A stretch of 38,459 nt of DNA from Hyphomicrobiales bacterium. Its GTDB lineage: Bacteria; Pseudomonadota; Alphaproteobacteria; Rhizobiales; Xanthobacteraceae. Position numbers and translations under genes: made by a program. Under the pieces are notes generated by a model that searched no databases, was not told the origin of the DNA, and worked only from the letters and a program-made list of their open reading frames with translations. The stretch lies in NCBI GenBank assembly GCA_003164375.1, contig PLTE01000108.1, forward strand, positions 1 through 38,459. Reading direction: 5' to 3'. How positions within the stretch are numbered: the first letter of the stretch is position 1; the number at the start of each line of letters is the position of its first letter. This document shows, piece by piece, positions 11,169 to 35,247 of the stretch.

Positions 11169-11271
11169 CGCGGTAATGTCGCTTTCCCGGCAAAATGAGT
11201 CTAGTCGGGCGGAGGTGAACCCCCTACATAGCAGCGACAAACGCGCCGGCCAAATTTCCGGATAAAGTCAT

Positions 11272-12816
11272 ATGAGTGACGTCGATATAAAGGCCTACGG
11301 TGATAGTTGGTACGCCGCGACAATGGTGGATGTACCACCGCGCCCACCCTTGTCGGCCGACCTCGACGTCGATGTTTGCGTGGTCGGCGGCGGCCTCGCC
11401 GGGCTTACCGCGGCACGGGAAATAGCGCGCAGCGGTTGGTCCGTCGTCCTCTTGGAGGCGAGCCGCCTTGCCGCGGGGGCCTCCGGCCGCAATACCGGCT
11501 TCGTGTTGCCGGGCTTCGGCGCGGATGCCGACACTCTGATCGCGCGGGTCGGATTCGAGCGCGCTAAGGATCTGTGGACGCTATCGCAGGCCGGTCTCGA
11601 CTATGTCCGCGACGCCGTCCGCGGCGACGGTGCTGCCGGCGTCGATTCGCAAGACGGCTGGCTTTATGTGTCTAAAGTCGACAACAGCGACGCGTTTTTG
11701 AACTATGTCGCGCTGCTCGGCGAATTGGGCTGCGAGATCGAAGGCTGGCCGACCGAGCGCGTACGCTCGGTGCTGCGCAGCGAGCGTTACTTTTACGGCA
11801 TCAATTATCTGCGCGCTTTCACCATCCATCCGCTCAATTACGCGCTCGCGCTCGCCGCCGCCGCCGAGCGTGACGGCGCGCGTATTTTCGAAAGCACCCC
11901 GGCCCTGTCACTCGACCCGACAGGGGTGCGCAAACGCATCGTGACGCCGAATGCGCGCCTGCGCGCCGATCATGTCGTGCTGTGCGGCAACGTTGGCCTT
12001 GGCTCACTCATACCGCGGCTGGCGGCGACGTTGGTGCCGATGACGACCTATGTGATCACCACGGCTCCGCTTGGCGAGCGTCTTGCCGAGGCGGTCGGCT
12101 ATCGCGGTGCGGTGAGTGACAGCGATCGCGCCGACAATCACTACCGCATCGTGGGCGGCGACCGCTTGATGCTGTCGGGCCGGGCGACGGCCTGGCGGAG
12201 TGATCCGCGCCGCTACGTCGGTGCGCTGACCCGCGATATCAAGAAGATCTATCCGCAGCTCGGCGCTGTCGCCGTCGACCATGCCTGGGCCGGCACGCTT
12301 GGCCTCACCATGCACCGGATGCCGCAGATCGGCGAACTTGGTCCCGGCGTGTGGCTGGCGAGCGGCTTTGGCGGACATGGGCTTAACACCACCGCCATGG
12401 CCGGCAATATCATTGCCCGCGCGATCGTCGGGGGCGATCAAACCTGGCGGCAATTCACGCCATTCGAACTGGTGTGGGCGGGCGGCGCTTTCGGCCGCGC
12501 CGCGGCGCAGATGCGCGTTTGGACCAAGCGACTGCGCTCAGCGATCGCAGTGCGTCGCGCCAAGGCCCGCGAACGGGCGCACCGCAAGGCGCAAAACGCC
12601 GAGCCGGCAATCCAACCGGTTCATCCGGCGGTAGAACCGGCGGCGGTTGTGCCGGCATCCCAAGAACCGAGCCCGACACCCGGCTCCATTATTACGCCAG
12701 CCACCGACGCGACTGCGGCCGCGAGCCCGGACCATGCAACGCCACCGAAGCCACCGCCGCGCGATCCCGCCGCGCCATTAACGGACGAGAAACGCAGGGA
12801 GCGAACCAAGGCGTAG
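11272..12816 (+). CDS. FAD-dependent oxidoreductase (DAO family) with a Pro/Ala-rich C-terminal tail
   Basis: Rossmann dinucleotide motif DVCVVGGGLAGLTAAREIARSGWSVVLLEA, with DAO-like length and motifs up to about aa 410. A basic then Pro-rich tail of ~100 aa follows. Confidence 0.8.
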   Translation: MSDVDIKAYGDSWYAATMVDVPPRPPLSADLDVDVCVVGGGLAGLTAAREIARSGWSVVLLEASRLAAGASGRNTGFVLPGFGADADTLIARVGFERAKDLWTLSQAGLDYVRDAVRGDGAAGVDSQDGWLYVSKVDNSDAFLNYVALLGELGCEIEGWPTERVRSVLRSERYFYGINYLRAFTIHPLNYALALAAAAERDGARIFESTPALSLDPTGVRKRIVTPNARLRADHVVLCGNVGLGSLIPRLAATLVPMTTYVITTAPLGERLAEAVGYRGAVSDSDRADNHYRIVGGDRLMLSGRATAWRSDPRRYVGALTRDIKKIYPQLGAVAVDHAWAGTLGLTMHRMPQIGELGPGVWLASGFGGHGLNTTAMAGNIIARAIVGGDQTWRQFTPFELVWAGGAFGRAAAQMRVWTKRLRSAIAVRRAKARERAHRKAQNAEPAIQPVHPAVEPAAVVPASQEPSPTPGSIITPATDATAAASPDHATPPKPPPRDPAAPLTDEKRRERTKA

Positions 12817-14897: not shown

Positions 14898-14913
14898 TGG
14901 CACGCGGCTTGCT
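14898..14913 (+). promoter_or_regulatory. sigma54 (-24/-12) promoter for flgE-flgK-flgL
   Basis: TGGCACgcggcTTGCt is an exact match to TGGCAC-N5-TTGCW. It lies about 82 nt upstream of the flgE ATG. Confidence 0.75.
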
Positions 14914-14994
14914 GCATCCGGCGCTGAGTGCGGCTGCCGGTCCATGTGTTGGACTCCCGCCGCTGTCGCGTTGAGCAAGAGTTGGAGACAAGTC

Positions 14995-16965
14995 ATGGGT
15001 ATCTTCGATGCATTGACCACCGCGGTGGCTGGTCTGCAGGCACAATCGTTCGCGCTTCAGAATATTTCCGGCAACATCGCAAACTCACAAACGACGGGCT
15101 ACAAGGAAACCGACACTAGTTTTGCGGATTTGGTTTCGGCTGCTTCGCAAAACCAGCAGACCACGGACGGCGTTATCGCCAATTCGGTCGCGACCAACGG
15201 CGTGCAAGGTTCGATCCAGAGCACATCGGTCTCCACCGACATGGCGATCAATGGCGCGGGCTATTTCGTGGTGGCCCAGCCGACCGGAAATAGCGGCACC
15301 ACCCCGACCTTCAACGGCGTCAGCGACTACACGCGGGCCGGCAATTTTGCGATGAATAACGAGGGCTATTTGGTCAACGGCTCCGGCTATTATCTCATGG
15401 GCATCCCGGTCGATCCGACCACCGGAAATCCGACCGGCAGTTCTCCACAGGTTCTGCAGTTCAACAATGAATTTGTGCCGGCGCAGGCGACGACGGCCAT
15501 CCAATATCAGGCAAACCTGCCAAGCACGCCGAGCTCGGGCGTGCTCAATGCAAGCGATTTCGAAGCCAACCCGCTCGCCGGAGCTCCAGTGGCGGCAACA
15601 ATCACCGGAACCGGCGGCAAGCTCAATCCGGATGCGCTGGCGACCGGCACTGGCACGCAGGGCGGGCTTTCGGCTACCACCACTCTTGCGTCACTGGGAA
15701 TCACGAGCGGACAGACCGTCACGATCGACGACGGAACGAACACGACGACGTTCACGGCAACTGGGACGAGCACGGTCGGCAACCTGCTCACTGCCATCAA
15801 TAGCGGCACTGCGGCGGTCGGGGCCACCATCAACAGCGCCGGGGATATGGTCCTCACCGGCCAAAGCTACACATCGTCGATTACGGTCGGCGGTACCGCG
15901 GCTTCCAATATCGGCTTCGGTGCCGGCCAGAATTCGTTCTCGCCGACCAATCTGCTGACGCAAAGCGCCGTATCGCAAGGGCAAACGCTCACCGTCCAGG
16001 TCGGCACCGGCGCGGCGCAGACCATCACGTTCGGTACCGGAGTCGGTCAGGTCGCGACGCTTGGGGAATTGCAGACTGCGATCCAGGGCTTGTCCGGCGT
16101 AAACGGCAGCGTGAATACAGCCAACGGCGATGTCACGCTGACGGCGGGCAACCCGACCGTCTCCTTGACCGTCGGCGGCACCGCGTCGGCCGCGAAATTC
16201 GGCATTCAAACATTAACCGCTCTGCCGGCCGACGGCACGGTCGTCGCCAATGACGTATCCACGTTCACCGCTCAGTCGATCGATGGCGGTTCGATCACGG
16301 CTTATGATACCGAGGGCAATTCGGTCAACGTCCAGTTCCGCTGGGCGCAGACGGGCACCGGCGCTTGGCAGCTGTTCTATCAAAGCAATTCGGCGGCAAC
16401 GGGCACGCAAGCCGCCTGGCAGAACGTCGGCACAAACTTCACGTTCAATTCGAGCGGCGAGTTGACGCCGCCGATCTCGAACGTGACACTGCAAAACTTG
16501 ACCGTGAACGGCGACTCGCTCGGCGGTGTTCAGCTCAATTTCGGCACTAACGGTCTCACCCAATTCGCCAATCCAAGCGGCACGTCGCAGGTGAGCCAAC
16601 TGCAGCAGAACGGTTACGCTGCCGGCCAGCTCCAATCGGTCGCGGTCAATAGTCAGAACCAAATCACCGGCACGTTCTCGAATGGCCAGACTATTGCGTT
16701 GGCGGATATCTCGCTGGCGACATTCAACGGCCAGGATTCGCTGCAGGCGCTCAACGGCGGCGCTTATGCCGCTACCGCCGATTCTGGATCGGCGATCCTT
16801 GGCGCGTCGGGTAAGATCGTCGGCAGCTCGCTGGAATCCTCAAATGTCGATATCTCCACCCAATTCAGCAATTTGATCATCGCGCAACAAGCCTATTCGG
16901 CCAATGCGCGTGTCATGACGACGTCCGATCAGATGATCCAAAGCCTGCTTCAGGTTATCCAGTGA
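14995..16965 (+). CDS. flgE: flagellar hook protein FlgE (large, 656 aa)
   Basis: ATG at 14995 preceded by GGAGA. The N-terminus is MGIFDALTTAVAGLQAQSFALQNISGNIANSQTTGYK. The C-terminus is LESSNVDISTQFSNLIIAQQAYSANARVMTTSDQMIQSLL. The central part carries a two-module insertion. Confidence 0.9.
   Translation: MGIFDALTTAVAGLQAQSFALQNISGNIANSQTTGYKETDTSFADLVSAASQNQQTTDGVIANSVATNGVQGSIQSTSVSTDMAINGAGYFVVAQPTGNSGTTPTFNGVSDYTRAGNFAMNNEGYLVNGSGYYLMGIPVDPTTGNPTGSSPQVLQFNNEFVPAQATTAIQYQANLPSTPSSGVLNASDFEANPLAGAPVAATITGTGGKLNPDALATGTGTQGGLSATTTLASLGITSGQTVTIDDGTNTTTFTATGTSTVGNLLTAINSGTAAVGATINSAGDMVLTGQSYTSSITVGGTAASNIGFGAGQNSFSPTNLLTQSAVSQGQTLTVQVGTGAAQTITFGTGVGQVATLGELQTAIQGLSGVNGSVNTANGDVTLTAGNPTVSLTVGGTASAAKFGIQTLTALPADGTVVANDVSTFTAQSIDGGSITAYDTEGNSVNVQFRWAQTGTGAWQLFYQSNSAATGTQAAWQNVGTNFTFNSSGELTPPISNVTLQNLTVNGDSLGGVQLNFGTNGLTQFANPSGTSQVSQLQQNGYAAGQLQSVAVNSQNQITGTFSNGQTIALADISLATFNGQDSLQALNGGAYAATADSGSAILGASGKIVGSSLESSNVDISTQFSNLIIAQQAYSANARVMTTSDQMIQSLLQVIQ
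15676..16206 (+). repeat. two tandem protein-level copies of the Thr/Gly-rich ~80-aa module inside FlgE
   Basis: The first copy (ORF-track residues 245-326) is ...GQTVTIDDGTNTTTFTATGTSTVGNLLTAINSGTAAVGATINSAGDMVLTGQSYTSSITVGGTAASNIGFG. The second copy (residues 335-421) is ...GQTLTVQVGTGAAQTITFGTGVGQVATLGELQTAIQGLSGVNGSVNTANGDVTLTAGNPTVSLTVGGTASAAKFGI. Confidence 0.7.
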
Positions 16966-20417: not shown

Positions 20418-21371
20418 TTACCCGGCACGATCGATCGGCGTTTCACTGCGGCGGGTTGCAGTTCTGACGAATATTGAATCGGCGGCGCAGGTCGCATTGC
20501 GGCCAAAATTGTCGGTAAAACGCGTGTCGACCAGATACTCGCCGGGATGCGCACCGACGAAGTCGCGGATCGCCTGCCGTTTCACGTCGCTGTCTTCGAC
20601 GACCAGATAATCGCCGGGCGACAGCACCGGGTGGAACTGTTCAAGCACGCCGATGACGTTGTGATGCGCGTCCTCGACGACGAGCCATGGATGCGGCTCC
20701 GAGTGGAGAAGGTCGGAATCGAACAGCCGTTCCGGGGCGGAACAATCGCCCTGATAGAATTTGACGTGCGGATACTCCATCTCGACCTTGACCCGGTCGA
20801 CCGAATGGACCTGCCCTTGGATGCCGCTCAGCGCCAGATTATCTGCAAACCAGACGGCACTTGCGCCGAGGCCGGATCCGATTTCGAAAATGGTTTGCGG
20901 GCGCAGCTCCGCGATCAGCGCCGGGTACATGGCGAAATCGAAGACGTTCTTCATCAGCGGCGTGCCGCGCCAGCGCATCAGTGACGGTGCGCCCTGGCAG
21001 GTCAGCAGCACGTCGAGGCCGAACTCGGTGCCGAACCGCGGATGATAATGGACACCCGATCGCTCGCGCTCGGAATACTCGACCAGATGGCCCTGCACCC
21101 AGCGATCGAGGAACAGCCGCAGGCGCATCAAGTCCCATTGCAGGCTAAGGTCTTGCGCGGGCGGCCGCGCGGCATTTTCGCGGACGCTGTCCTCCCACGA
21201 ACGGCTCGGATCGAAAGCGATCAAGCGCGTCAGGACGCGCGTAAACCAACTGTCGAAGATGCTGTGCAGGCCATTTTGTTCGCGCTCAACCTTGTCGCGC
21301 ATTTCACTCAAGAATTTGAGCGCAGCCGCCTTCAAGGCGTCGCCGGAAATCAAAGTTGCCTCGGTCGTCAT
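20418..21371 (-). CDS. CmcI-family (cephalosporin hydroxylase / rhamnosyl O-methyltransferase family) SAM-dependent methyltransferase
   Basis: WRGTPLMKNVFDFAMYPALIAELRPQTIFEIGSGLGASAVWFAD matches the CmcI core pattern (G.P..K...D...Y..L..E.KP..IIE.G...GGSA.W.A) from memory. A later VVEDAHH motif is also present. Confidence 0.7.
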   Translation of the reverse strand: MTTEATLISGDALKAAALKFLSEMRDKVEREQNGLHSIFDSWFTRVLTRLIAFDPSRSWEDSVRENAARPPAQDLSLQWDLMRLRLFLDRWVQGHLVEYSERERSGVHYHPRFGTEFGLDVLLTCQGAPSLMRWRGTPLMKNVFDFAMYPALIAELRPQTIFEIGSGLGASAVWFADNLALSGIQGQVHSVDRVKVEMEYPHVKFYQGDCSAPERLFDSDLLHSEPHPWLVVEDAHHNVIGVLEQFHPVLSPGDYLVVEDSDVKRQAIRDFVGAHPGEYLVDTRFTDNFGRNATCAADSIFVRTATRRSETPIDRAG

Positions 21372-21398: not shown

Positions 21399-22244
21399 CT
21401 AAGCACCGGCGAATTGCGACGCCAGATCGCCGCAAAACGTCATCGGGCCGACGTGGTTGAGCTTGCTTCCAAGATCCGCCCAGATCTCGCCGCCGAGTTC
21501 AATCCAGCGCTTGCAAAAGGCGAAATCCTCGCTGAGGTAGGTGCCGTCATCGGCGATCATGCATTCGAACAAAGCGAAGCGGTTGTCGCTTGCGGTCGCG
21601 GCATCGACGGAATGATCGCGTTTGTAGCGCAGCTGCGGATAATGTGCGCACATTTTTGCCAGCGCTTGGCGCCGGATCATGAGAAAACCGGTGCCGGCGT
21701 ACCGCACCTTGACGAAGCCACCTTTCTCGATGACGGCGTTGGGATCGTCGACCTCGAACACATATTTTAAGGCCGCGCCCGCCGCGTTGGGTCGCCCGCC
21801 CTCGATCGTCGTCTTCACCCTGTCCCAGTCGATCCGCTTGATCGGATAGATCGCGGCACACATGTCGGCGCCGCATTCGATCAGACGCAGCACTTGATCC
21901 GGCTCGAAGCCGATGTCGGCGTCGATAAACAACAGGTGGGTGGCATCCGGATCGTCCAGGAATTGGGAGATCAGGCTCGCCCGCGCCCGCGTGATCAGCG
22001 CGTCGCCGTCCTTGAACAAGATCTTGAGGTTGAAGTCGCTATAGGCGCGGATCAACTTTTGCAGCTTAAACAGCGAGGCTGCATAAAGCACCGAAATCTG
22101 TCCGCCGAAGCACGGTGTGGCGATGACGAGATTGACGGTGTTAGGGGCCGTGGCGGTTCCCGCCAGCTCGGCGGCGGTCCTGCCGGCGGGAGGCGCTGCG
22201 CGGGCGCCGCCGGCCTTGTGATCGGACTCCGAGGCAGTCGACAT
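21399..22244 (-). CDS. putative GT-A-fold (family 2-like) glycosyltransferase
   Basis: VNLVIATPCFGGQISVLYAASL...ITRARASLISQFLDDPDATHLLFIDADIGFEPDQVLRLI. This is the usual GT-A layout with a DxD motif (DAD). The exact family was not identified. It is probably co-transcribed with the methyltransferase downstream (27-nt gap). Confidence 0.5.
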   Translation of the reverse strand: MSTASESDHKAGGARAAPPAGRTAAELAGTATAPNTVNLVIATPCFGGQISVLYAASLFKLQKLIRAYSDFNLKILFKDGDALITRARASLISQFLDDPDATHLLFIDADIGFEPDQVLRLIECGADMCAAIYPIKRIDWDRVKTTIEGGRPNAAGAALKYVFEVDDPNAVIEKGGFVKVRYAGTGFLMIRRQALAKMCAHYPQLRYKRDHSVDAATASDNRFALFECMIADDGTYLSEDFAFCKRWIELGGEIWADLGSKLNHVGPMTFCGDLASQFAGA

Positions 22245-22339
22245 CGAGGTTCGTTCCTTCGTCGATCCGGCGCTGTCGGGTGTTGCGGCGCGACGGAGCG
22301 ACTTTGTAATTATGGTTAAGCAATAGCGAAGAGAAATGG

Positions 22340-22354
22340 TTAATGGCGACTTAA
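22340..22354. promoter_or_regulatory. CtrA-type box TTAA-N7-TTAA
   Basis: TTAAtggcgacTTAA is an exact match to the core consensus. It lies in the AT-rich divergent region between the GT-A gene (start 22244) and the flagellin gene (start 22629), about 100 nt upstream of the GT-A start. Confidence 0.55.
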
Positions 22355-24525: not shown

Positions 24526-24592
24526 CGTGGCGAATGGTCGGAGGCTGCACGGTGTCCTGCTCGTTATTGTGTGGCCGCTATTTTTCGGACGC

Positions 24593-24608
24593 TTAGCAAG
24601 CCCTTAAC
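24593..24608. promoter_or_regulatory. near-consensus CtrA box TTAG-N7-TTAAC upstream of flbT-flaF
   Basis: TTAGcaagcccTTAAC has one mismatch. It ends 41 nt upstream of the flbT GTG. Confidence 0.35.
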
Positions 24609-24648
24609 CCGCATCCGTGACGATGGATCGCCTCATAAGGATTCACGC

Positions 24649-25389
24649 GTGGCCCTAAAGATCGAGCTCAAGCCTAACGAACGCATCCTCCTCGGCGATT
24701 GCGTCGTCACCAATAACGGCCAGCGCACGCGTCTCATGGTCGAGGGGAAGGTGCCCATTCTGCGTGAAAAGGACATCATGTCGCTGGGCAGCGCCAATAG
24801 CCTGGCGAAACTCATCTATCTCGCTGTGCAGTTCATCTACACGGCCAAGCGACCGCAGGACCATCACGCGCTTTACGTCCGGCTGGCGGATGAATTTGTG
24901 AAACGCGCGCCCAGTGCGAAGCCATATATTGAGAGCATCAACAATCGAATCTTAACAGGCGAGCCGTATAAGGCGCTAAAGGAAGCGCGCAAGCTCATTG
25001 CCTACGAAAAGGAGCATCTCGACATGCATTACGCCAGCAACGCCTACGCGAAGACCGCCATTGACACGGCAGGCCCGCGCGAACTCGAGGCGAATTTGCT
25101 TTTGCAAGCTGCGGCGAAGTTGCAGGCTGTTCATGATTCGTGGCGCGATAAGCCGTCCGGCCTCGACGATGCAATCCTGTACAATCGCCGGCTTTGGACG
25201 GTATTCCTCGACGCGGTGACGAGCGAAGGCAACAGGTTGCCGGCCGCGGTCCGCGAGAATATCAGGCGGCTCGGCGTTTTCGTCATGGGGGAGACGTTCT
25301 CGCTGATGACCAATCCGAAGCCGGATCACCTGACGTCGATCATCAAGATCAATCGCGGCATCGCCGCCGGCCTGCGCGGCAAGGCGTAA
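24649..25389 (+). CDS. flbT: FlbT-FlaF in-frame fusion ORF (flagellin translation regulator pair)
   Basis: GTG at 24649 with AAGGA 7 nt upstream. The FlbT-like part is (M)ALKIELKPNERILLGDCVVTNNGQRTRLMVEGKVPILREKDIM...AKLIYLAVQFIY. It runs with no stop codon into a FlaF-like part, MHYASNAYAKTA...PRELEANLLLQAAAKLQ...YNRRLWTVFLDAV...LPAAVRENI. The track ORF starts at an upstream GTG (24571). Confidence 0.75.
   Translation: MALKIELKPNERILLGDCVVTNNGQRTRLMVEGKVPILREKDIMSLGSANSLAKLIYLAVQFIYTAKRPQDHHALYVRLADEFVKRAPSAKPYIESINNRILTGEPYKALKEARKLIAYEKEHLDMHYASNAYAKTAIDTAGPRELEANLLLQAAAKLQAVHDSWRDKPSGLDDAILYNRRLWTVFLDAVTSEGNRLPAAVRENIRRLGVFVMGETFSLMTNPKPDHLTSIIKINRGIAAGLRGKA
25024..25389 (+). CDS. flaF: possible independently translated FlaF (internal start within the fusion frame)
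   Basis: ATG at 25024 with a strong AAGGAG 9 nt upstream, exactly where stand-alone FlaF proteins begin (MHYASNAY...). Same frame as the flbT part. Confidence 0.4.
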   Translation: MHYASNAYAKTAIDTAGPRELEANLLLQAAAKLQAVHDSWRDKPSGLDDAILYNRRLWTVFLDAVTSEGNRLPAAVRENIRRLGVFVMGETFSLMTNPKPDHLTSIIKINRGIAAGLRGKA

Positions 25390-25494: not shown

Positions 25495-27042
25495 TCAGGC
25501 GGCGCGCGGGACATCCAGTCGAAGCCGCCCGCGCAGATGCGGTATGCGACTTACATCCATCCTTGCCGCGAGCATCCGCATATAAATCAGCTCTTCTTTG
25601 GTTGCTATTGCAAAATCCGCGAATTCGCGTTGCCCGTCGTGGAGATCTGCGTCCGACAGCGACGTTTCGAAAAGATCGAGCCAGCCGGATTCTTCCACGT
25701 CGCCGTCCGCGCCCTCATGAAACAGCATCTTTTGCCGATCGCGAATGCAAGTCGGTAGCTCGGAAGGATACAGGTCATAGAGCGCTCGTAACGGCGCCTT
25801 GCCGATCGGGGCATTGCTCGTTTGTCGCACCAAACAGGATTCATCGAGCTCACTCGCATAATCGACGACCGTTTGATCGAGGAACGGCTCGCGTATTTCG
25901 AGTTGGAATTGCATCGAACAGCGATCGACCCGTTGAAGATTGGCGCGATGCATCATGCCCAAACATTGCTTCTGCATATCGCGGCCGCCGCCGTCAGGCC
26001 GGGTAAAAGCCCGTTCGAGGGGCGAATAGCCTGCGAATAATTCATCGGCGCCTTCGCCGCACAGCGCGACGCGGAAACCGTCTTGATGTATGCGCTGCGA
26101 GAGAAGATAGGTGTAAAGACTAGGACGGATCACCGAGGGCTCGAACGTCTCCACGGTATCAACGACCGTCTCGATGAGGGGGAGCGTCTTGGTGCAATGC
26201 GCTTCAACGGCCACCTCGCGCAGGTTGAGACCGGTCTCCTCCGCATAATGTTTGGCGTAAAGATGATCGGGCGCATTGCACCCGACCGCGATGTAGCCCG
26301 GCATGGCCGGAGAAAATCTGCGCGCGTAATGCATAACAAGCGTGCTATCGATGCCGCCGCTGAACAAGGCCGCGACCGGAAGGTTCGCGGGCACGCGGAT
26401 GCGCACGGCTTCCGATAGAATTCGGTCCAGTTCCTGGGGCGAGGCGGCGCTCGAGGTTGTTGGGGATGGCAGGTTGTAATGGCGCCCGCAGAAATCACGG
26501 GTCAGCAAATGGCCAGGCGGCAACAATAAGACGGCGTCGCCATCGGTCGCATCCAGGAGCGGTCGGATTTCCGAGCAAAACAGAAAGCCCTTGGGCGACT
26601 GGATGAGATAAAGCGGCTTTACGCCGAAAGGGTCGCGCGCGGCCAAGAACTCGCCGGTCGCCGTATCGATCGCAACGAAGGCATACATGCCGGCCAGGCG
26701 TTTGATCCCGGCTTGGCCCCACGCTCGCAGCACATTCGCGACAACTTCCGTGTCGCATTGCGTGCGGAAACGCACGCCGAGCGCCTCCAATTCCCGACGT
26801 AGAACGTCGTGATTGTAGATCTCGCCATTGAACGAGACGAGAAAGCGCTCATCGAAGGAGGCTTGCGGCTGCGCGCCGTTTGCCGCGTCTACAATGCGCA
26901 AGCGGCGTGTGCACATCGCGGTGTTGTTTCCGACCATGACGAGTGGGTCGGTGACGTCGCCCCGATGCAGCATACCCGCGATCAACTGCCGGACTGCCGA
27001 TCCGGCGTCATCCCAATCGATAGCAACCGCTATGCCGCACAT
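25495..27042 (-). CDS. asparagine synthase (glutamine-hydrolysing) family amidotransferase
   Basis: N-terminal MCGI (Cys2 Ntn nucleophile), PP-loop motif FSGGIDSTLV, and 515 aa of AsnB-like layout. Confidence 0.85.
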   Translation of the reverse strand: MCGIAVAIDWDDAGSAVRQLIAGMLHRGDVTDPLVMVGNNTAMCTRRLRIVDAANGAQPQASFDERFLVSFNGEIYNHDVLRRELEALGVRFRTQCDTEVVANVLRAWGQAGIKRLAGMYAFVAIDTATGEFLAARDPFGVKPLYLIQSPKGFLFCSEIRPLLDATDGDAVLLLPPGHLLTRDFCGRHYNLPSPTTSSAASPQELDRILSEAVRIRVPANLPVAALFSGGIDSTLVMHYARRFSPAMPGYIAVGCNAPDHLYAKHYAEETGLNLREVAVEAHCTKTLPLIETVVDTVETFEPSVIRPSLYTYLLSQRIHQDGFRVALCGEGADELFAGYSPLERAFTRPDGGGRDMQKQCLGMMHRANLQRVDRCSMQFQLEIREPFLDQTVVDYASELDESCLVRQTSNAPIGKAPLRALYDLYPSELPTCIRDRQKMLFHEGADGDVEESGWLDLFETSLSDADLHDGQREFADFAIATKEELIYMRMLAARMDVSRIPHLRGRLRLDVPRAA

Positions 27043-27231: not shown

Positions 27232-28134
27232 TCAGGCCAGCAGATCGAGCAACGAGCCCGACGAGCCGCTGCTCGCCAAGAGGGTTTCGGCAGTGCCGCC
27301 GGTCTGCAGCGCGAGGGCGGAATTAAACAGGACGGCCGCGGGGGAACTGGCGGCAGTGCTGGTGGACGACCCTGTCGAACTGCTTGCGGCGCTCGTGGAC
27401 GATCCTGCCGCGCTCGAGGAACTTGAAGAAGTGGAACCGGAGGCGCTGGAGGAACTGGAAGAGTTGGCAGCGCTGGAAGTGGGGGCGGTCGGCTGGAAAC
27501 TGGAGTTCTGGGCGCCGAAGCCGACGCTTGATGCAAAAACGCCCCCGACCGAGATCGAATCGGTGAGATTTTTGCCGGTGAGAACCAGGTCGCCGCCGGC
27601 ATTAAGCGACGCCGTCACCTGGGCATTGGCGGCAACGTTTGGATTGTTGATGGCATTGATCAGATCCTGAACCGTATCCGTGCCCGTCGACGCGAAGGTC
27701 GTCGTGTTGGTGCCGTCACTGACGGTGATCGTGCCATTCTGGGGAATCCCGAGCGTTAACAGCGAGGTACTCGCGGAAAGCGGCACCGTGCCGGTTCCGG
27801 TTGCCGGTGCGCCGGTCGTTGGAGCGTTGGACGTAGACCCGCTGGAACTGGCTTGTGAGGCTTGCACTGCGCTTTGCAATGCGGCGGTAAGTTGGGCTTG
27901 GACGCGCGTTTGCGCTTCCTTGGTCGCAATGGCCGCCAAGCCCGACGCTTCGTTGCTCACGGCGCTGCCTAATCCTGTAATCAGCGCATCGCTTAACGAG
28001 GAAGTCTGATTCTCGGTCTGAACCTGGCTCCAATAGGTCTGGTCCTGTTGCCAGAACGTCTGGCTGCTTCCTATGCTTCCGATACTCATGGACTGCGACG
28101 CCTTGCCAGACCGGTCTCCCCTGCGGTCATTCAT
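27232..28134 (-). CDS. orphan Ser/Thr-rich flagellar-cluster protein carrying one hook/flagellin-type module and a poly-Ser tract
   Basis: 300-aa ORF; an alternative ATG lies at 28089 (MSIGSIGSS...). Residues ~121-207 align closely with FlgE module 1. A poly-Ser segment covers residues ~219-264. No signal peptide is visible. Function unknown. Confidence 0.6.
   Translation of the reverse strand: MNDRRGDRSGKASQSMSIGSIGSSQTFWQQDQTYWSQVQTENQTSSLSDALITGLGSAVSNEASGLAAIATKEAQTRVQAQLTAALQSAVQASQASSSGSTSNAPTTGAPATGTGTVPLSASTSLLTLGIPQNGTITVSDGTNTTTFASTGTDTVQDLINAINNPNVAANAQVTASLNAGGDLVLTGKNLTDSISVGGVFASSVGFGAQNSSFQPTAPTSSAANSSSSSSASGSTSSSSSSAAGSSTSAASSSTGSSTSTAASSPAAVLFNSALALQTGGTAETLLASSGSSGSLLDLLA
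27343..27480 (-). repeat. poly-Ser low-complexity coding tract
   Basis: TSSAANSSSSSSASGSTSSSSSSAAGSSTSAASSSTGSSTSTAASS in the orphan protein. The plus strand shows the complementary GAA/GGA-rich periodicity. Confidence 0.8.
27514..27774 (-). repeat. single copy of the module in the orphan protein
   Basis: NGTITVSDGTNTTTFASTGTDTVQDLINAINNPNVAANAQVTASLNAGGDLVLTGKNLTDSISVGGVFASSVGFG is closest to FlgE copy 1. The similarity extends into the following GAQNSSFQPT versus GAGQNSFSPT. Confidence 0.7.
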
Positions 28135-28182
28135 GCACCATTGCAGTTAACAGACCGTCGATTCCCTAACGTTTACCACCGG

Positions 28183-28190
28183 TTAACCAT
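28183..28190. promoter_or_regulatory. CtrA half-site-type 8-mer TTAACCAT
   Basis: Exact TTAACCAT in the divergent region between the Ser-rich orphan gene (minus) and TPR-GT 1 (plus). Confidence 0.35.
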
Positions 28191-28285
28191 CATGGCCGAC
28201 TTTGCGGTAAAGGCACCGTGGGCGGGAGCCGCTCCTCGGCGGTATGGTGCTCCCGTCGCCAGTCCGAGGCTGCAGGCAGGATTCC

Positions 28286-30190
28286 ATGGCGAAGCAGGCG
28301 ACCGCGAGGCTTTCGCAACTCGGCCGCTCTTTCGAGCAGGGGCTGGCACTGCACCGGGGCGGACGGCTCGCTGAGGCCGACCGAATCTATGAAGCCATTC
28401 TCGCGGCCGATCCGCGCCACTTCGATGCGCTGCATCTGTCCGGCGTTCTCAGAAATCAACAGGGCCGGTCTGTCGAGGCTCTGCATTTGGTTTCGGCGGC
28501 ATTGAACATCAAGTCCGGATCGGTGGACGCGCTTGTGAGTCATGGCGTGATCCTTGATGCGCTCAAGCGCCATGAAGAAGCGCTGGCGAGCTTCGATCGA
28601 GCGCTGGCGGCGCGTGCCGGCGACGCTACCTTGCACTATAACCGCGGCAATTCGCTCAAAGGTCTCGGCCGCTACGCGGAGGCGTTGGCGAGCTACGATC
28701 GCGCGCTCGCGCTTGCGCCGGATCTCGCCCCCGCCCACCACAATCGCGGCAGTACCTATGCGGAGCTCGATCGGAACGATGAGGCGCTGGCGAGCTTCGA
28801 CCAGGCGCTTTTGCTGTGCCTTGAGCGGGCCGGCATCAAGATGGAGAATGGCATCTCCCTGGCAACGATTGATCGCGGCGATGAATTGTTTGCAAGGCTC
28901 CGTCAAGCGCTCGCCGCCGATCCCAACAGTGCCGACATACTGAGCAATCGCGGCAAGGTTCTCAACCGGTTCAAACGCTACCATGAGGCGATTGCGTGCT
29001 TTGACGCGGCGCTGGCGCTTCGCCCCGACCAAGCGGACACGCTCTGTCATCGCGGCGACGCATGCGCAGGGATCGGCCGCTACGACGATGCGTTTGCGAA
29101 TTTCGCGGAGGCGCTTTGCGTTGCGCCGAATTTCGCCGATGCGCATCTTAAGCGCGGCAATGCTTTGGTCGAGTTGAACCGAATGGACGAAGCGATGCGC
29201 AGCTTTAGCGCCGCTGTAGCGATCAAGCCGGACAACGCGGACGCGAACTTCAACGAAGCGCTGACCCGGCTGTGCCTGGGCGATTTTCGCCAGGGTTGGA
29301 AAAAGTATGAATATCGGTGGGAAAGGGCTGAATGGGCGAAGGACCGGCCAAATTATCCGCGTCCGATGTGGCGCGGAGAGCAGGAGCTGCAGGGCAAGAC
29401 AATTCTTCTTGTCGCCGAACAAGGCTTTGGCGACGCCATCCAATTCGCACGCTACGCACCGCTGTTAGCAGCGCTCGGCGCAAAGGTGTTGCTTGGCGTC
29501 CGGTCCCCGCTCACTGCACTAATGGCAACCGTACCCGGTGTCTCGCAAGTGATAAGCGCGGGTGAGACTCTGCCCCCCTTCGATCTCTACTGCCCGCTGT
29601 TGAGCCTGCCATTAGCGTTCGGAACCGAACCGGCAACGATACCGGCCACGGTCCCCTATCTGCGAGCTTCTGAAGAGCGCATCGCCAAATGGCGCGGCAG
29701 ATTACCGGACAGTGGCCGGCTGCGAATCGGAATTTGCTGGGCCGGCATAAGCGGGCATCCCAACAATCACCGACGTTCGATACCGCTCGAGCGCTTCGCC
29801 ACGATATTGTCGGCGCCGGGCGTCGACTTCGTCAGTCTGCAAAAGGATGTCGGCGAGTCGGACGCGACGATCCTGAGCGCACACGGCGTAAATCAGCTTG
29901 GGCAGGAATTCGCGGATTTTGCCGATACCGCCGCCGTCGTCGCGATGCTCGATCTCGTGATCTGCGTCGACACTTCGGTCGCGCATCTTGCCGGCGCGAT
30001 GGGCAAGGCCGTCGGCGTGCTGATACCGTTTTCGCCGGACTTCAGGTGGATGCTCGACCGCACCGACAGCCCTTGGTATCCGACCATGCGGCTGTTTCGG
30101 CAACCCGCGATCGGCGACTGGGACGGACCGCTCGATCGGCTGCGCCAGGAACTTTCCGCTCTCGGAAGCCGTCCGCTCAAGCCGCGGTGA
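28286..30190 (+). CDS. TPR-repeat protein fused to a GT9-like (heptosyltransferase-fold, GT-B) glycosyltransferase domain
   Basis: ATG at 28286 (MAKQATARLSQLGRSFEQGLALHRGGRLAEADRIYEAIL...). There are multiple 34-aa TPR units (…A..Y..AL...P....A..NRG...). The C-terminal domain carries KTILLVAEQGFGDAIQFARY, RIGICWAG and DTSVAHLAGAMGK...SPWYPTMRLFRQ. Confidence 0.75.
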   Translation: MAKQATARLSQLGRSFEQGLALHRGGRLAEADRIYEAILAADPRHFDALHLSGVLRNQQGRSVEALHLVSAALNIKSGSVDALVSHGVILDALKRHEEALASFDRALAARAGDATLHYNRGNSLKGLGRYAEALASYDRALALAPDLAPAHHNRGSTYAELDRNDEALASFDQALLLCLERAGIKMENGISLATIDRGDELFARLRQALAADPNSADILSNRGKVLNRFKRYHEAIACFDAALALRPDQADTLCHRGDACAGIGRYDDAFANFAEALCVAPNFADAHLKRGNALVELNRMDEAMRSFSAAVAIKPDNADANFNEALTRLCLGDFRQGWKKYEYRWERAEWAKDRPNYPRPMWRGEQELQGKTILLVAEQGFGDAIQFARYAPLLAALGAKVLLGVRSPLTALMATVPGVSQVISAGETLPPFDLYCPLLSLPLAFGTEPATIPATVPYLRASEERIAKWRGRLPDSGRLRIGICWAGISGHPNNHRRSIPLERFATILSAPGVDFVSLQKDVGESDATILSAHGVNQLGQEFADFADTAAVVAMLDLVICVDTSVAHLAGAMGKAVGVLIPFSPDFRWMLDRTDSPWYPTMRLFRQPAIGDWDGPLDRLRQELSALGSRPLKPR

Positions 30191-32175: not shown

Positions 32176-32191
32176 TGCCAATCGCGTGCCA
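32176..32191 (-). promoter_or_regulatory. sigma54-type promoter for flgI operon
   Basis: The minus strand reads TGGCACGcgatTGGCa. The GG-N10-GC spacing is correct, with one mismatch (TGGC for TTGC). The predicted transcription start is near 32165, at the beginning of the tandem hairpin leader. Confidence 0.55.
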
Positions 32192-32302: not shown

Positions 32303-32318
32303 CGCTTTTTACCGCCCG

Positions 32319-32326
32319 TTAACCAT
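32319..32326. promoter_or_regulatory. CtrA half-site-type 8-mer TTAACCAT upstream of fliX
   Basis: Exact TTAACCAT 20 nt upstream of the fliX ATG. The position is very close to the start codon, so its role is uncertain. Confidence 0.3.
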
Positions 32327-33597: not shown

Positions 33598-35247
33598 GTG
33601 GCATCCCGGCGTCATGCACCGATGAACGACCGCTTGCAGGTTTCGCAATCGAATATTTCGCGCCTATTGCGACGGGCGCTGCGCGCTCACGACGATGGCG
33701 ACTCGGCGAAGGCGGAGCGGCTCTATAACGCCGTCATCGCGCGGCATCCCGGCGACTTCGATGCGCTCCATGGTCTCGGCCGGCTTCATTATCAACGTGG
33801 GCGCTTCGACACCGCGCTCGTGCTCATTCAGTCGGCGCTGAAAATCGATCCCGATCGCGTCGACGGATTTTCGAGCCTCGGGTTGGTGTTTCATTTGCTG
33901 CGTCGGTTCAAGGACGCGCTCGCGAGCTATGATGCGGGATTGCGCCTTGCGCCGGACAATGCGGAGCTCCACAACCGGCGCGGGGTGGCGCTGCTCGAAC
34001 TGCGCCGTCCGCAGGAGGCGCTTGCCGACTTCGAAAGCGCGCTTGCCGTCGATCCCGATCACCGCGATGCGCTCGGCAATTACGGCAATGCCTTGCTCAA
34101 GCTCAATCGTCCCGCCGAGGCGCTTGTGGTCTACGATCGGGCGTTGGCGATGGTGCCCGATAACGCCCAGCTCTTGACCAACCGCGCCGTCGCCTTGCGC
34201 CGGCTCGATCGGCCGCACGAAGCGTTGATGAGCGCAAGCCGCGCGCTGGTCAGCCGGCCGGATTTTGCCCAGGCGCGGTTCGTCGAGAGCGTGGCGCGTC
34301 TGACGCTCGGCGACTTTGCCGCCGGCTGGCGCGGCTATGAAGCGCGTTGGTCGGTCGGGCTCCTGGCATCGCAGCGTCGCAACTTCGCTGAGCCACTGTG
34401 GCTTGGCCAAGAAACGCCTAAAATGTCACTCGCGGGGAAGACCATACTGTTGCACGCCGAACAGGGCTCCGGCGACACGATCCAATTCGTGCGCTATGCG
34501 CGGTTGGTGGCGGCGTGCGGAGCGAAAAAAGTTATTCTTGAAGTTCAGCGCGAACTGGCCCGTCTGCTGCCGGGTATCGCCGGCGTTGACGCAGTGATCG
34601 CGCGCGGTGCGCCATTGCCGCCGTTCGATTGTCATTGTCCGCTGCTCAGTCTGCCGCTCGCCTGCGCAACGGAGCAAGCAACGATCCCGGCGGACGTTCC
34701 CTATATCGCGCCGCCGCCGGAAGCGGAGATTCGCCGCTGGCGCGATCGCTTGCCGCGGCATCGGCCGCTGGTCGGCGTGGTCTGGTCGGGGGACCGTTCG
34801 CACGATAACGACCTTAATCGCTCGATCCGCATCGAGGCGCTGTTGCCGCTGCTCGATTTGCCCGAGTTCTGCTTTGTCAGTCTGCAGCATGCCGTGCGCG
34901 AAGAGGACATTCCAATTTTACAGAGCCGGCCGGACATCATTCGCATCGGCGAGGAGTTTTGCGATTTCGCCGATACGGCTGCGGCGCTCGCCGGGTTGGA
35001 CGCGGTGATCTCAGTCGATACCGCGGTCGCCCATTTGGCGGCGGCGATGGGCAAGCCGCTGTTTCTGCTGCTACCCTATGCTGCGGATTTCCGCTGGCTG
35101 CGCGAGCGGCACGATAGCCCCTGGTATCCGACTGCGCGGCTCTACCGACAGGCAGAATTCGGCGATTGGGATCGCGCGATCGGTGCGTTGTCGCAGGATC
35201 TGATGCGCGCAAGCTTCTTTGCCTGGGGCCGCCAGCGATCAGCGTGA
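33598..35247 (+). CDS. TPR-repeat + GT9-like glycosyltransferase, paralog 2
   Basis: Same architecture as 28286..30190. It carries TPR units, L.LGDF..GW..YE.RW, KTILLHAEQGSGDTIQFVRY, VGVVWSG and DTAVAHLAAAMGK...SPWYPTARLYRQ. The start is a GTG at 33598 or an ATG at 33622. Confidence 0.75.
   Translation: MASRRHAPMNDRLQVSQSNISRLLRRALRAHDDGDSAKAERLYNAVIARHPGDFDALHGLGRLHYQRGRFDTALVLIQSALKIDPDRVDGFSSLGLVFHLLRRFKDALASYDAGLRLAPDNAELHNRRGVALLELRRPQEALADFESALAVDPDHRDALGNYGNALLKLNRPAEALVVYDRALAMVPDNAQLLTNRAVALRRLDRPHEALMSASRALVSRPDFAQARFVESVARLTLGDFAAGWRGYEARWSVGLLASQRRNFAEPLWLGQETPKMSLAGKTILLHAEQGSGDTIQFVRYARLVAACGAKKVILEVQRELARLLPGIAGVDAVIARGAPLPPFDCHCPLLSLPLACATEQATIPADVPYIAPPPEAEIRRWRDRLPRHRPLVGVVWSGDRSHDNDLNRSIRIEALLPLLDLPEFCFVSLQHAVREEDIPILQSRPDIIRIGEEFCDFADTAAALAGLDAVISVDTAVAHLAAAMGKPLFLLLPYAADFRWLRERHDSPWYPTARLYRQAEFGDWDRAIGALSQDLMRASFFAWGRQRSA

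What the first reader, a model, noticed from the sequence alone, without database searches (positions are those of the whole stretch)
27232..28134. Orphan 300-aa Ser-rich protein with a hook-type module and a ~45-residue poly-Ser tract, of unknown flagellar role
This ORF has no signal peptide. It has a Gln/Ser-rich N-terminus (MSIGSIGSSQTFWQQDQTYWSQVQ) and one module that is the closest relative of FlgE module 1; by eye more than half the positions are identical, including flanking residues. After the module come a poly-Ser tract and a short hydrophobic C-terminus (LLASSGSSGSLLDLLA). It lies between TPR-GT 1 (divergent) and the amidotransferase gene (same strand). Four roles seem possible: a flagellar type III-exported accessory, sheath or decoration protein; a decoy or competitor substrate for the modification enzymes; a carrier for glycan assembly; or a regulator of secretion. 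I do not recognise it as any named flagellar protein such as FlgD, FliK, FlaG, FliD or FlgM.
Basis: partly seen in the sequence, partly recalled or inferred. Interest (0 to 1): 0.65.

Follow-up and report, generated by a model that had tools for sequence, protein, structure and literature searches.

The report
Stand-alone hook-domain protein paired with glycosyltransferase
This is a real, conserved but uncharacterised gene of uncultured soil Xanthobacteraceae: a serine-rich protein carrying a free-standing copy of the flagellar hook's outer domain, always encoded head-to-head with its own FlmG-type glycosyltransferase; its role is still unknown.

Summary
The ORF is real. It lies on the minus strand at 27232-28134, but homologues start at the internal ATG at 28089, giving 285 aa. 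dN/dS is about 0.2. It is not an orphan: 679 homologues were found and 126 genome loci, all of the 79 listed from uncultured Xanthobacteraceae or Alphaproteobacteria MAGs.

Residues 94-201 are 55% identical to FlgE residues 231-335 in the same window. They match Pfam Flagellin_IN and form the only confidently folded part. Trees show an ancient duplication, not recent copying.

The N-terminal segment (invariant FWQQDQ..W motif plus a helix) and the C-terminal segment (…LLxLLA) are conserved. They match no known flagellar family: not FliD, FlgD, FliK, FlgM, FlaG or the axial-protein termini. The Ser-rich tract is a variable-length spacer.

The most informative new fact is context. In about 95% of loci the gene is divergent from one orthologous clade of FlmG-like TPR-glycosyltransferase. 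The shared intergenic region carries a conserved CtrA-type box. flgE instead has a sigma-54 promoter.

Best guess, at low confidence (0.35): it is a dedicated O-glycosylation substrate that is exported by the flagellar type III system and acts as a hook or filament accessory. Nothing here tests export or glycosylation directly.

The parts
27232..28089 (-). Most likely CDS: 285 aa plus stop. The ORF from the first in-frame ATG extends to 28134 (300 aa).
   Evidence: ORF list. Homologues all start at MSIGS/MGIGS. dN/dS 0.18-0.35 against 7 relatives.
27850..28089 (-). Family-specific N-terminal segment, residues 1-80. It holds a near-invariant S-F-W-Q-Q-D-Q-x-[YF]-W motif (residues 11-20, nt 28030-28059) and then a predicted amphipathic helix.
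   Evidence: Invariant F12, Q14, I37, G50, A59 and R62 in 112 sequences. phmmer of residues 1-88 against 1.84 billion representatives finds only 63 proteins; all but one spurious repeat protein are 344 aa or shorter, and the nine read have the same architecture. No profile match to flagellin, FlgE, FlgK or FlgL. AF2 predicts helix 10-80 at low confidence.
27811..27849 (-). First Ser/Thr-rich linker, residues 81-93.
   Evidence: S+T 62%, variable in alignment A1. pLDDT below 50.
27487..27810 (-). Folded Flagellin_IN-type beta-rich module, residues 94-201. It is a paralogue of FlgE outer module 1.
   Evidence: Pfam PF07196 scores 27.3 bits, above the gathering score of 22.7. 55% identity to FlgE 231-335. 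hhalign probability 99.7. pLDDT 70-87. Foldseek top hits are outer domains of flagellins, FliD and FlgK, all weak.
27340..27486 (-). Ser-rich disordered spacer, residues 202-250 (the 'poly-Ser tract').
   Evidence: 27 Ser in 49 residues, written in six codon types. Length varies among homologues. pLDDT 31-36. No significant tandem DNA repeat.
27235..27339 (-). Conserved C-terminal segment, residues 251-285: LFNSAxALQTGGTAETLLASxGxxGSLxNLLA.
   Evidence: Consensus and near-invariant N256, S257, A260, L261, A267, L270, L271, G278 and A285. dN/dS 0.14-0.27 against the four closest relatives, higher (0.24-0.92) in three others.
28172..28190 (-). Conserved upstream box ATGGTTAACCGGTGGTAAA. It fits the CtrA consensus: TTAA-N7-TAAA, and it contains the reverse complement of the 8-mer TTAACCAT. 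It lies 97 nt before the ATG, roughly midway to the TPR-GT1 start.
   Evidence: Same box at -80 to -127 in most homologous loci. 40 of 57 distinct upstream regions carry the exact 8-mer, against 3.1% of background 260-nt windows. ATGGTTAA occurs only 4 times in the window, all in flagellar intergenic regions.
28146..28150 (-). Second conserved TTAAC block, about 40 nt downstream of the first box. It may be part of the promoter.
   Evidence: Conserved column block A(A/T)TTAAC in the alignment of 30 upstream regions.
28286..30190 (+). Divergent partner gene TPR-GT1, with FlmG-like architecture: N-terminal TPR repeats and a C-terminal GT-B/GT9-like domain. The ORF opens at 28244, but the conserved start MAKQ is at 28286.
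   Evidence: Pfam TPR families plus a partial Glyco_transf_9 match. Divergent from the target in about 95% of 79 loci. Target-adjacent copies form one clade, distinct from the TPR-GT2 clade. The reciprocal look-up from a TPR-GT1 homologue again finds a target homologue next door.
15634..15948 (+). FlgE module 1 (FlgE residues 231-335), the paralogous copy within the hook protein.
   Evidence: BLASTP. T and E modules form separate clades; same-genome identity of 46% is about equal to cross-genome identity of 45.5%.

Best explanation
The gene encodes a lineage-restricted flagellar accessory protein.

Anatomy. It has a family-specific N-terminal docking/export segment (FWQQDQ..W motif plus an amphipathic helix). 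This is followed by one folded beta-rich Flagellin_IN domain, an ancient stand-alone copy of the first outer module of the hook protein FlgE. Ser/Thr-rich disordered linkers flank that domain. A conserved C-terminal segment closes the protein.

Proposed mechanism:
(i) The gene and the divergent FlmG-type TPR-glycosyltransferase (TPR-GT1) are switched on together from a shared CtrA-type control region. This is the same early/glycosylation class as flmG in Caulobacter, and it differs from the sigma-54 class of flgE.
(ii) In the cytoplasm the TPR domain of TPR-GT1 binds the protein, and the enzyme O-glycosylates Ser/Thr residues of the module and/or linkers.
(iii) The modified protein has no Sec signal and leaves through the flagellar type III export apparatus.
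(iv) Outside the cell it acts as a glycosylated accessory or decoration associated with the hook-filament surface. The FlgE-derived domain may provide the contact.

Shown here: gene reality and conservation; domain anatomy; paralogy with FlgE; strict gene pairing with one GT clade; the conserved upstream box; absence of a Sec signal or TM segment.

Inferred: CtrA control; glycosylation by TPR-GT1; the export route; the final location.
For: - Real and constrained: dN/dS is about 0.2 overall, and lowest in the module, the N-terminus and the C-terminus. One search found 679 homologues.
- Flagellar context is conserved in 79 loci.
- TPR-GT1 is divergent from the target in about 95% of loci. The adjacent GTs form a single orthologous clade, separate from TPR-GT2. 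Reciprocal adjacency is confirmed.
- TPR-GT1 has the FlmG architecture. In Caulobacter, FlmG binds its acceptors through the TPR domain and O-glycosylates them in the cytoplasm before export, and flmG is directly CtrA-controlled (PMC7591256).
- A CtrA-type box is conserved at about -97. In the window the same motif occurs only in the orf281/flagellin and fliX/flgI intergenic regions. flgE and flgI carry sigma-54 sites instead.
- Composition resembles exported flagellar proteins and extracellular Ser-linker proteins: 35% Ser+Thr, pI 4.05, no Cys or His, only 3 Lys+Arg. There is no signal peptide or TM segment.
- The locus is a glycosylation island: two TPR-GTs, a GT-A-like orf281, a CmcI-type methyltransferase and an AsnB-like amidotransferase.
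- The module is homologous to FlgE's central inserted module. Its fold resembles flagellar outer domains, but only weakly.
Against: - There is no direct evidence of expression, glycosylation or export.
- The termini match none of the export or assembly domains of axial proteins, so assembly onto the hook is pure inference.
- The early (CtrA-type) promoter class differs from that of the hook gene, which is odd for a hook-stage structural partner.
- Outside the module the AF2 model has low confidence.
- A distance-matrix co-evolution test between the target and the TPR domain of TPR-GT1 was weak and uninformative (r=0.33).
- Gene adjacency is equally compatible with an adaptor or a regulator of the enzyme.
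- TPR-GT1 could instead act on FlgE or on flagellin.
Confidence: 0.35

Rival explanations
1. Cytoplasmic specificity factor or adaptor for TPR-GT1, working like GlfM does for Maf-2. The protein would bind the glycosyltransferase through its conserved termini. Its FlgE-like domain would then help recruit, or template, the hook protein or flagellin for O-glycosylation. It would not itself be the main exported product.
For: - Strict pairing with one GT clade.
- Co-localised CtrA-type box, i.e. the same regulatory class as the glycosylation enzymes.
- Precedent for a cis-encoded specificity factor that forms a ternary complex with flagellin and a glycosyltransferase: GlfM (bioRxiv 10.1101/2023.12.03.569772).
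Against: - FlmG-type enzymes already carry their own TPR acceptor-binding domain (PMC7591256).
[quoted passage not shown] This protein instead mimics a substrate domain and carries long Ser-rich spacers, which are typical of extracellular proteins.
- A domain that resembles the substrate is expected to compete with it, not recruit it.
Confidence: 0.15
2. Regulatory mimic or secreted checkpoint protein, analogous to the regulatory flagellin FljJ or to FlgM. It would be made early. As a hook-domain look-alike it would titrate TPR-GT1 or another hook-recognising factor. That block would be relieved when the protein is exported through the completed basal body or hook.
For: - In Caulobacter the CtrA-activated class includes the regulatory flagellin FljJ and the glycosylation genes (PMC7591256). 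The target has that promoter type, not the sigma-54 type of flgE.
- The module is a paralogue of a structural subunit's domain.
- There is no Sec signal.
- Extra tandem paralogues with altered N-terminal motifs exist in L009, L011 and L022.
Against: - The mimicry covers only an outer domain. It does not cover the D0/D1 termini, which chaperones and FlbT/FlaF-type regulators are thought to recognise.
- No homology to FljJ, FlgM, FlbT or FlaF.
- A 49-residue Ser spacer and a well-folded module are not needed for a titration device.
Confidence: 0.15
3. Structural cap-like or junction-like component, a functional stand-in for FliD or an extra hook-tip or hook-surface protein. The N- and C-terminal helices would insert into the axial structure and the beta domain would form the plate or decoration.
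For: - The layout, N-terminal helix, Flagellin_IN beta domain and C-terminal helical segment, echoes FliD.
- Foldseek hits include FliD D2-D3 domains.
- Several alphaproteobacterial flagellar systems have no recognisable FliD (Rhizobiaceae: PMC6913195).
- The composition is typical of exported axial proteins.
Against: - No FliD_N, FliD_C, Flg_bb_rod or Flagellin_N/C signal in any of 112 members, even at E<=10, nor by profile-profile comparison.
- The C-terminal segment is short and Gly-rich.
- The family is confined to one uncultured lineage, whereas a cap would be expected throughout the FliD-less relatives.
- Whether these genomes lack FliD was not tested.
Confidence: 0.1
4. A surface or secreted protein unrelated to flagellar export, for example a type I-secreted adhesin-like protein with a C-terminal secretion signal, that merely sits in the flagellar island.
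For: Acidic pI, no Cys, Ser/Thr/Gly/Ala-rich composition, and a conserved uncleaved-looking C-terminus that ends in an acidic or amide residue followed by hydrophobic residues (DLLA, NLLA, DMLA).
Against: - No ABC transporter or membrane-fusion protein genes in the window or in the related loci.
- No RTX repeats.
- Synteny with flagellar genes is invariant, and the promoter box is shared with other flagellar genes.
Confidence: 0.05

Closest known systems
Outer (inserted) domains of the hook protein FlgE, here FlgE module 1 of the same window
   Same: Clear sequence homology: 55% over 109 aa in the same genome and about 46% on average across 14 genomes. Same Flagellin_IN-type fold.
   Different: The target lacks every other part of FlgE: Flg_bb_rod, D1 and the Flg_bbr_C termini. 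It has its own conserved termini and Ser-rich linkers. It has evolved as a separate clade since before the radiation of the lineage. Its promoter region is CtrA-type, not sigma-54.
FliD (HAP2) filament cap
   Same: Order of elements: N-terminal helix, a beta domain containing a Flagellin_IN motif, then a C-terminal helical segment. Weak structural hits to FliD D2-D3.
   Different: No FliD_N or FliD_C homology. It is much smaller. It has a poly-Ser spacer. Its beta domain is related to FlgE rather than to FliD.
Flagellins as acceptors of the TPR-glycosyltransferase FlmG (Caulobacter, Brevundimonas)
   Same: Encoded next to a glycosyltransferase with FlmG architecture. Ser/Thr-rich surface domain. 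CtrA-type control of the enzyme gene (PMC7591256).
   Different: It is not a flagellin: no Flagellin_N or Flagellin_C. Modification was not demonstrated. The partner enzyme belongs to a paralogous clade, distinct from the one next to flgH.
Campylobacter FlaC (flagellum-secreted flagellin-like protein)
   Same: A non-structural derivative of an axial protein, encoded by a flagellated bacterium and, in the case of FlaC, secreted through the flagellum (PMC8306008).
   Different: It is the inverse design. FlaC keeps the flagellin termini and lacks the central domain. This protein keeps only a central outer domain, from the hook protein, and lacks the axial termini.
FljJ regulatory flagellin (Caulobacter) and GlfM specificity factor (Shewanella Maf-2)
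   Same: Small accessory proteins of flagellar glycosylation or regulation, encoded in cis. FljJ is CtrA-activated. GlfM forms a ternary complex with the enzyme and its acceptor.
   Different: No sequence or predicted structural similarity to either. FljJ is a full flagellin paralogue. GlfM is predicted to be a four-helix bundle.

Membership tests
Pfam Flagellin_IN (PF07196) domain proteins | Match to the Flagellin hook IN motif profile above the gathering score. | tested here: met
   27.3 bits against a cut-off of 22.7, at residues 120-174 of the 285-aa form. 53 of 112 family members match at E<=10.
Flagellar axial proteins (FlgE, FlgK, FlgL, flagellin) | Conserved N-terminal (Flg_bb_rod or Flagellin_N) and C-terminal (Flg_bbr_C or Flagellin_C) helical assembly domains. 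| tested here: not met
   No such Pfam hit in any of 112 members, even at E<=10. Profile-profile comparison with alignments of the loci's flagellin, FlgK, FlgL and FlgE matches only the central module.
FliD filament cap | FliD_N and FliD_C domains. | tested here: not met
   No hits. Only weak fold resemblance of the beta domain to FliD D2-D3, with Foldseek E>=0.037.
FlgD, FliK, FlgM, FlaG | The family-defining Pfam or NCBIfam domains (FlgD, Flg_hook, FlgM, FlaG). | tested here: not met
   No hits in Pfam or NCBIfam. No PDB sequence relative at E<=1.
Acceptor substrates of FlmG-type O-glycosyltransferases | Bound by the enzyme's TPR domain and O-glycosylated on Ser/Thr before export. | not testable with these tools
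   Only indirect evidence: strict divergent pairing with one TPR-GT clade and 35% Ser+Thr content.
CtrA regulon (alphaproteobacterial cell-cycle and flagellar class) | TTAA-N7-TTAA(C) or TTAACCAT box in the promoter region. The consensus is recalled from my own knowledge of Laub et al. 2002. | tested here: met
   ATGGTTAACCGGTGGTAAA at 28172-28190. It is conserved at about -97 in homologous loci, and the motif is restricted to flagellar intergenic regions in the window. One half-site is TAAA or TGAA rather than TTAA. Binding by CtrA is not testable here.
Sec- or Tat-secreted proteins, or membrane proteins | N-terminal signal peptide (basic n-region plus hydrophobic h-region) or a TM helix. | tested here: not met
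   No K or R in the first 30 residues. The maximum 8-aa hydropathy in the first 35 residues is 0.96. The maximum 19-aa hydropathy is 1.1; across the family the median is 1.15 and the maximum 1.68. No dedicated predictor such as SignalP was available.
Type I secretion substrates | C-terminal secretion signal, usually with RTX repeats, and a cognate ABC/MFP transporter. | tested here: inconclusive
   The C-terminus is conserved and ends in D/N followed by hydrophobic residues. However, there are no GGxGxD repeats and no transporter genes in the window or in 79 loci.
Gram-positive serine-rich repeat glycoproteins (SRRPs) | Long N-terminal signal peptide, SRR dipeptide repeat regions, LPXTG anchor and an accessory Sec locus. 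| tested here: not met
   No signal peptide, no LPXTG, an irregular Ser tract of only 49 aa, and a flagellar rather than SecA2/Y2 context.

The most novel reading that the evidence does not exclude
The protein is a previously unrecognised extracellular structural component of a Caulobacter-type flagellum. It would be a heavily O-glycosylated, flagellar-T3SS-exported protein. Its free-standing hook outer domain would dock onto the hook or hook-filament tip, either as a decoration or as a cap substitute in a lineage whose relatives lack a recognisable FliD. Its own dedicated FlmG-paralogue glycosyltransferase would service it, making this the first non-flagellin client of the FlmG enzyme class.
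Probability: 0.12. Interest if true: 0.75.

Novelty: new variant of a known kind. Interest (0 to 1): 0.45.

Why it matters
Only flagellins are known as clients of FlmG-type (TPR plus GT-B) protein O-glycosyltransferases. A conserved, dedicated enzyme-partner gene pair whose partner is not a flagellin would widen the substrate range of this enzyme class. It would also give a compact model acceptor: one about 110-residue domain plus linkers.

The gene is also a clean example of an outer decoration domain of an axial protein being released as an independent gene and kept for a long evolutionary time. This bears on how flagellar surface domains evolve, and possibly on unexplained parts of alphaproteobacterial flagella, such as the missing cap and hook surface chemistry.

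The practical weight is limited. The family is confined to uncultured soil and peat Xanthobacteraceae, and no function is demonstrated.

Tried and rejected
1. Low-complexity or GC-rich ORF artefact. Rejected: strong protein-level conservation, dN/dS about 0.2, mixed Ser codons. The overlapping plus-strand ORFs have no support.
2. Recent copy or gene conversion from flgE. Rejected: target and FlgE modules form separate clades, and same-genome identity (46%) equals cross-genome identity (45.5%).
3. Diverged flagellin, FlgK, FlgL or FlgE. Rejected by Pfam and hhalign, which match only the module.
4. PDB sequence profile search: nothing below E=2.
5. Foldseek against PDB and BFVD: only weak generic hits (E>=1e-3) to outer domains of flagellins, FliD, FlgK and phage sheath or baseplate proteins. 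These give no functional lead.
6. Sigma-54 promoter near the target: none. Perfect or near-perfect sites occur only upstream of flgE and flgI.
7. tblastn against annotated plasmids and phages: no match.
8. Search of the protein database with the FlgE module alone: no hit at all. This is probably a limitation of the word index. As a result, the distribution of the FlgE module outside this lineage is unknown.
9. P0131, the 2295-aa hit to the N-terminal query, is an unrelated repeat surface protein and is spurious.
10. Mirror-tree co-evolution between the target and the TPR or GT domains: correlations were low and noisy (r 0.22-0.33, with one NaN). It is uninformative.
11. Searching the other proteins of the window for the FWQQDQ motif as a shared docking peptide: the motif is unique to the target.
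12. More distant TPR-GT homologues (P0306, P0207) lie in non-flagellar contexts and are not informative.
Full report
**1. The observation**

The ORF reported at 27232-28134 lies on the minus strand and is 300 aa from the first ATG. Every homologue starts at the internal Met16 (MSIGSIGS… or MGIGS…), so the likely CDS is 27232-28089, 285 aa.

Composition of the protein:
- 22% Ser and 13% Thr
- pI 4.05
- no Cys or His
- only three Lys+Arg

It has no basic or hydrophobic N-terminal signal region and no TM-like stretch.

It has 27 Ser in 49 residues, written in six different Ser codons, and shows no significant DNA tandem repeat. Its length varies between homologues. It is therefore a selected Ser-rich spacer, not a slippage product.

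Pairwise dN/dS against seven relatives is 0.18-0.35. It is usually lowest in the module (0.12-0.26) and is also low in the N- and C-terminal segments against the closest relatives. The gene is real.

**2. The hook-type module**

Residues 94-201 align with FlgE residues 231-335 of the same window at 55% identity (60 of 109, E 2e-18). Profile-profile comparison gives probability 99.7.

The flagellin of the window matches the module only weakly. FlgK and FlgL do not match at all.

Pfam recognises the region as Flagellin_IN, at 27.3 bits against a gathering score of 22.7.

In an AlphaFold2 model built on 112 sequences, this is the only confident part (pLDDT 70-87). The N-terminal part is predicted as one long helix (10-80) at low confidence, and the Ser tract and C-terminus are below pLDDT 50.

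Foldseek places the module among outer domains of flagellins, FliD, FlgK and phage sheath proteins. All hits are weak (E>=1e-3).

In 14 genomes where both genes are on the fetched locus, target modules and FlgE modules form two separate clades. Same-genome identity (46%) equals cross-genome identity (45.5%). The module is thus an old duplication of a FlgE domain that has since been kept as an independent gene. It is not a recent copy or a conversion tract.

That the FlgE module is surface-exposed is inferred from the nested domain topology of hook proteins. The module sits centrally, between the D1 hit (101-153) and the C-terminal hit (629-670).

**3. The rest of the protein**

The family has a fixed architecture:
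- An N-terminal segment with a nearly invariant S-F-W-Q-Q-D-Q-x-[YF]-W motif. The motif is duplicated in some members.
- A conserved amphipathic stretch: ALITAMGS…GLASIANQTAL.RVN.QLTAALQSA.
- A short Ser/Thr linker.
- The module.
- The Ser-rich spacer.
- A conserved 35-residue C-terminus: LFNSA.ALQTGGTAETLLAS.G..GSL.NLLA.

A phmmer search with residues 1-88 against 1.84 billion representative proteins found only 63 proteins. All but one are 344 aa or shorter, and the nine read in full have this same architecture. The exception is a spurious repeat protein.

No member gives any Pfam hit to FliD, FlgD, FliK, FlgM, FlaG or the axial-protein termini, even at E<=10. NCBIfam and PDB sequence searches are empty. 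The FWQQDQ motif occurs in no other protein of the window.

**4. Distribution**

One search returned 679 homologues; the 120 listed are 48-100% identical. A scan of one genome per GTDB species found 126 encoding loci. All 79 loci listed are MAGs labelled Xanthobacteraceae, Alphaproteobacteria or similar, from soil and peat projects.

Sources call the proteins 'hypothetical' or 'flagellin hook IN motif-containing protein'. No match exists in annotated plasmids or phages.

The family is therefore not an orphan, but it is uncharacterised and lineage-restricted. No cultured carrier was seen.

**5. Context**

The window carries a Caulobacter-type flagellar cluster:
- flgG, flgA, flgH
- TPR-GT2
- fliX, flgI, a rod-binding protein, and an unnamed ORF (orf188)
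- TPR-GT1
- the target
- an AsnB-like amidotransferase
- an FlbT-FlaF ORF
- flagellin
- a GT-A-like ORF (orf281)
- a CmcI-type methyltransferase
- flgL, flgK, flgE

Across 79 loci the constant neighbour of the target is TPR-GT1, transcribed divergently, in about 95% of loci. The downstream gene varies.

A tree of the glycosyltransferase domains shows that the target-adjacent copies form one orthologous clade. This clade is separate from the TPR-GT2 clade next to flgH and from a third clade.

The reverse look-up gave the same picture. A TPR-GT1 homologue at 57% identity again has a 283-aa target homologue as its divergent neighbour. More distant TPR-GT relatives sit in non-flagellar contexts.

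TPR-GT1 has the architecture of FlmG: an N-terminal TPR domain that binds the acceptor flagellins, and a C-terminal GT-B domain (PMC7591256).

**6. Regulation**

The intergenic region of about 196 nt contains ATGGTTAACCGGTGGTAAA (28172-28190). It lies 97 nt from the target ATG and about the same distance from the conserved TPR-GT1 start.

The box is conserved at -80 to -127 in most homologous loci. A second TTAAC block follows about 40 nt downstream. 40 of 57 distinct upstream regions carry the exact 8-mer ATGGTTAA, against 3.1% of background windows. The rest carry one-mismatch variants at the same place.

ATGGTTAA is the reverse complement of TTAACCAT, and the whole site fits TTAA-N7-TTAA. 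These are the two CtrA motifs described in Caulobacter; this is my own knowledge (Laub et al. 2002) and was not checked here.

In the window the 8-mer occurs four times against 0.24 expected. All four lie in flagellar intergenic regions: orf281/flagellin (twice), TPR-GT1/target, and fliX/flgI.

By contrast, a perfect sigma-54 consensus lies 32 nt before flgE, and a one-mismatch site lies before flgI. There is none near the target.

In Caulobacter, CtrA directly activates flmG, the sugar-synthesis genes and the regulatory flagellin FljJ (PMC7591256). The target therefore appears to belong to the early/glycosylation regulatory class and not to the hook class. CtrA binding itself is an inference.

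**7. Interpretation**

The best-supported reading has four steps. The protein is a dedicated partner of TPR-GT1, most simply its acceptor substrate. It is made together with the enzyme. It is O-glycosylated on its Ser/Thr-rich module and/or linkers in the cytoplasm. It then leaves the cell by the flagellar type III pathway and acts as an extracellular glycoprotein associated with the hook or filament.

The following are shown:
- the anatomy
- the paralogy with FlgE
- the gene pairing
- the conserved box
- the lack of a Sec signal

The following are inferred: glycosylation, the export route and the final location. I give this model 0.35.

Rivals that the data do not exclude:
- a GlfM-like adaptor for the enzyme (0.15; GlfM precedent)
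- a secreted regulatory mimic in the manner of FljJ or FlgM (0.15)
- a cap-like or junction-like structural protein (0.10; Rhizobiaceae lack FliD according to PMC6913195, but the termini match no FliD domain and the family is too narrowly distributed)
- a type I-secreted surface protein (0.05)

A co-evolution test between the target and the enzyme domains was uninformative.

**8. Comparison with known systems and novelty**

The only family membership that holds is the Flagellin_IN domain. Membership in the axial-protein families, FliD, FlgD, FliK, FlgM, FlaG, Sec substrates and Gram-positive SRRPs was tested and not met.

The nearest functional analogies are:
- flagellins as FlmG clients
- FliD, by layout
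- Campylobacter FlaC, which has the inverse design: flagellin termini without the central domain (PMC8306008)
- FljJ and GlfM, as cis-encoded accessory proteins

I found no description of a free-standing hook outer domain with its own termini and its own FlmG-paralogue partner. I therefore rate it a new variant of a known kind.

Interest is moderate (0.45). It is a clean and testable enzyme-partner pair and a neat case of domain release. It is functionally unproven, however, and confined to uncultured bacteria.

Noticed in passing
window 24571-25389 (+): FlbT and FlaF Pfam domains lie in a single uninterrupted ORF (FlbT at residues 29-149, FlaF at 156-268). Related loci call one 246-aa gene with both domains. 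In this lineage the flagellin translational repressor and the secretion chaperone/regulator therefore appear to be fused.
   Followed up: partly
window 14898-14912 (+) and 32177-32191 (-): A perfect sigma-54 consensus, TGGCACGCGGCTTGC, lies 32 nt upstream of the flgE ATG. A one-mismatch site lies upstream of flgI. This implies a Caulobacter-like class III arrangement.
   Followed up: partly
window 22312-22319, 22336-22354, 28172-28190, 32308-32326: ATGGTTAA (the reverse complement of the CtrA 8-mer TTAACCAT), often extended to TTAA-N7-TNAA, occurs 4 times in 38 kb against 0.24 expected. It is found only in flagellar intergenic regions: orf281/flagellin, TPR-GT1/target and fliX/flgI.
   Followed up: partly
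window 21399-22244 (-): A 281-aa ORF with no Pfam or NCBIfam hit that looks like a GT-A glycosyltransferase (…LLFIDADIGFEPDQ…, a DXD motif). In related loci it is always divergent from the flagellin gene, and it often lies convergent with the target.
   Followed up: no
window 28286-30190 (+), 33598-35247 (+); loci L001-L082: FlmG-like TPR-glycosyltransferases occur as two to four paralogues per locus and fall into at least three clades. Only one clade is tied to the target. This suggests division of labour among acceptors or sugars.
   Followed up: partly
L009 about 10870-11640, L011 about 10870-11640, L022 about 10930-11735: Tandem second copies of the target gene. The second copies in L009 and L011 have an altered, more basic N-terminal motif (SFWQQNQNFRARWQ).
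   Followed up: partly
window 14944-16965 (+): FlgE is long (673 aa). It carries two consecutive IN-type modules, at residues 231-335 and about 343-445. The target resembles the first much more than the second (55% against about 32%).
   Followed up: partly
window 25495-27042 (-) and 20418-21371 (-): An AsnB-type glutamine amidotransferase and a CmcI/rhamnosyl O-methyltransferase-like enzyme sit within the flagellar cluster. This is consistent with synthesis of a modified, amidated or methylated flagellar glycan. The donor sugar is unknown.
   Followed up: no
window 15619-15963 (+) used as protein query: The large protein database returned no hit at all for the FlgE module alone (130 candidates, none scored), although target-family proteins share about 50% identity with it. 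This is probably a word-index limitation for this Ser/Thr-rich sequence.
   Followed up: no
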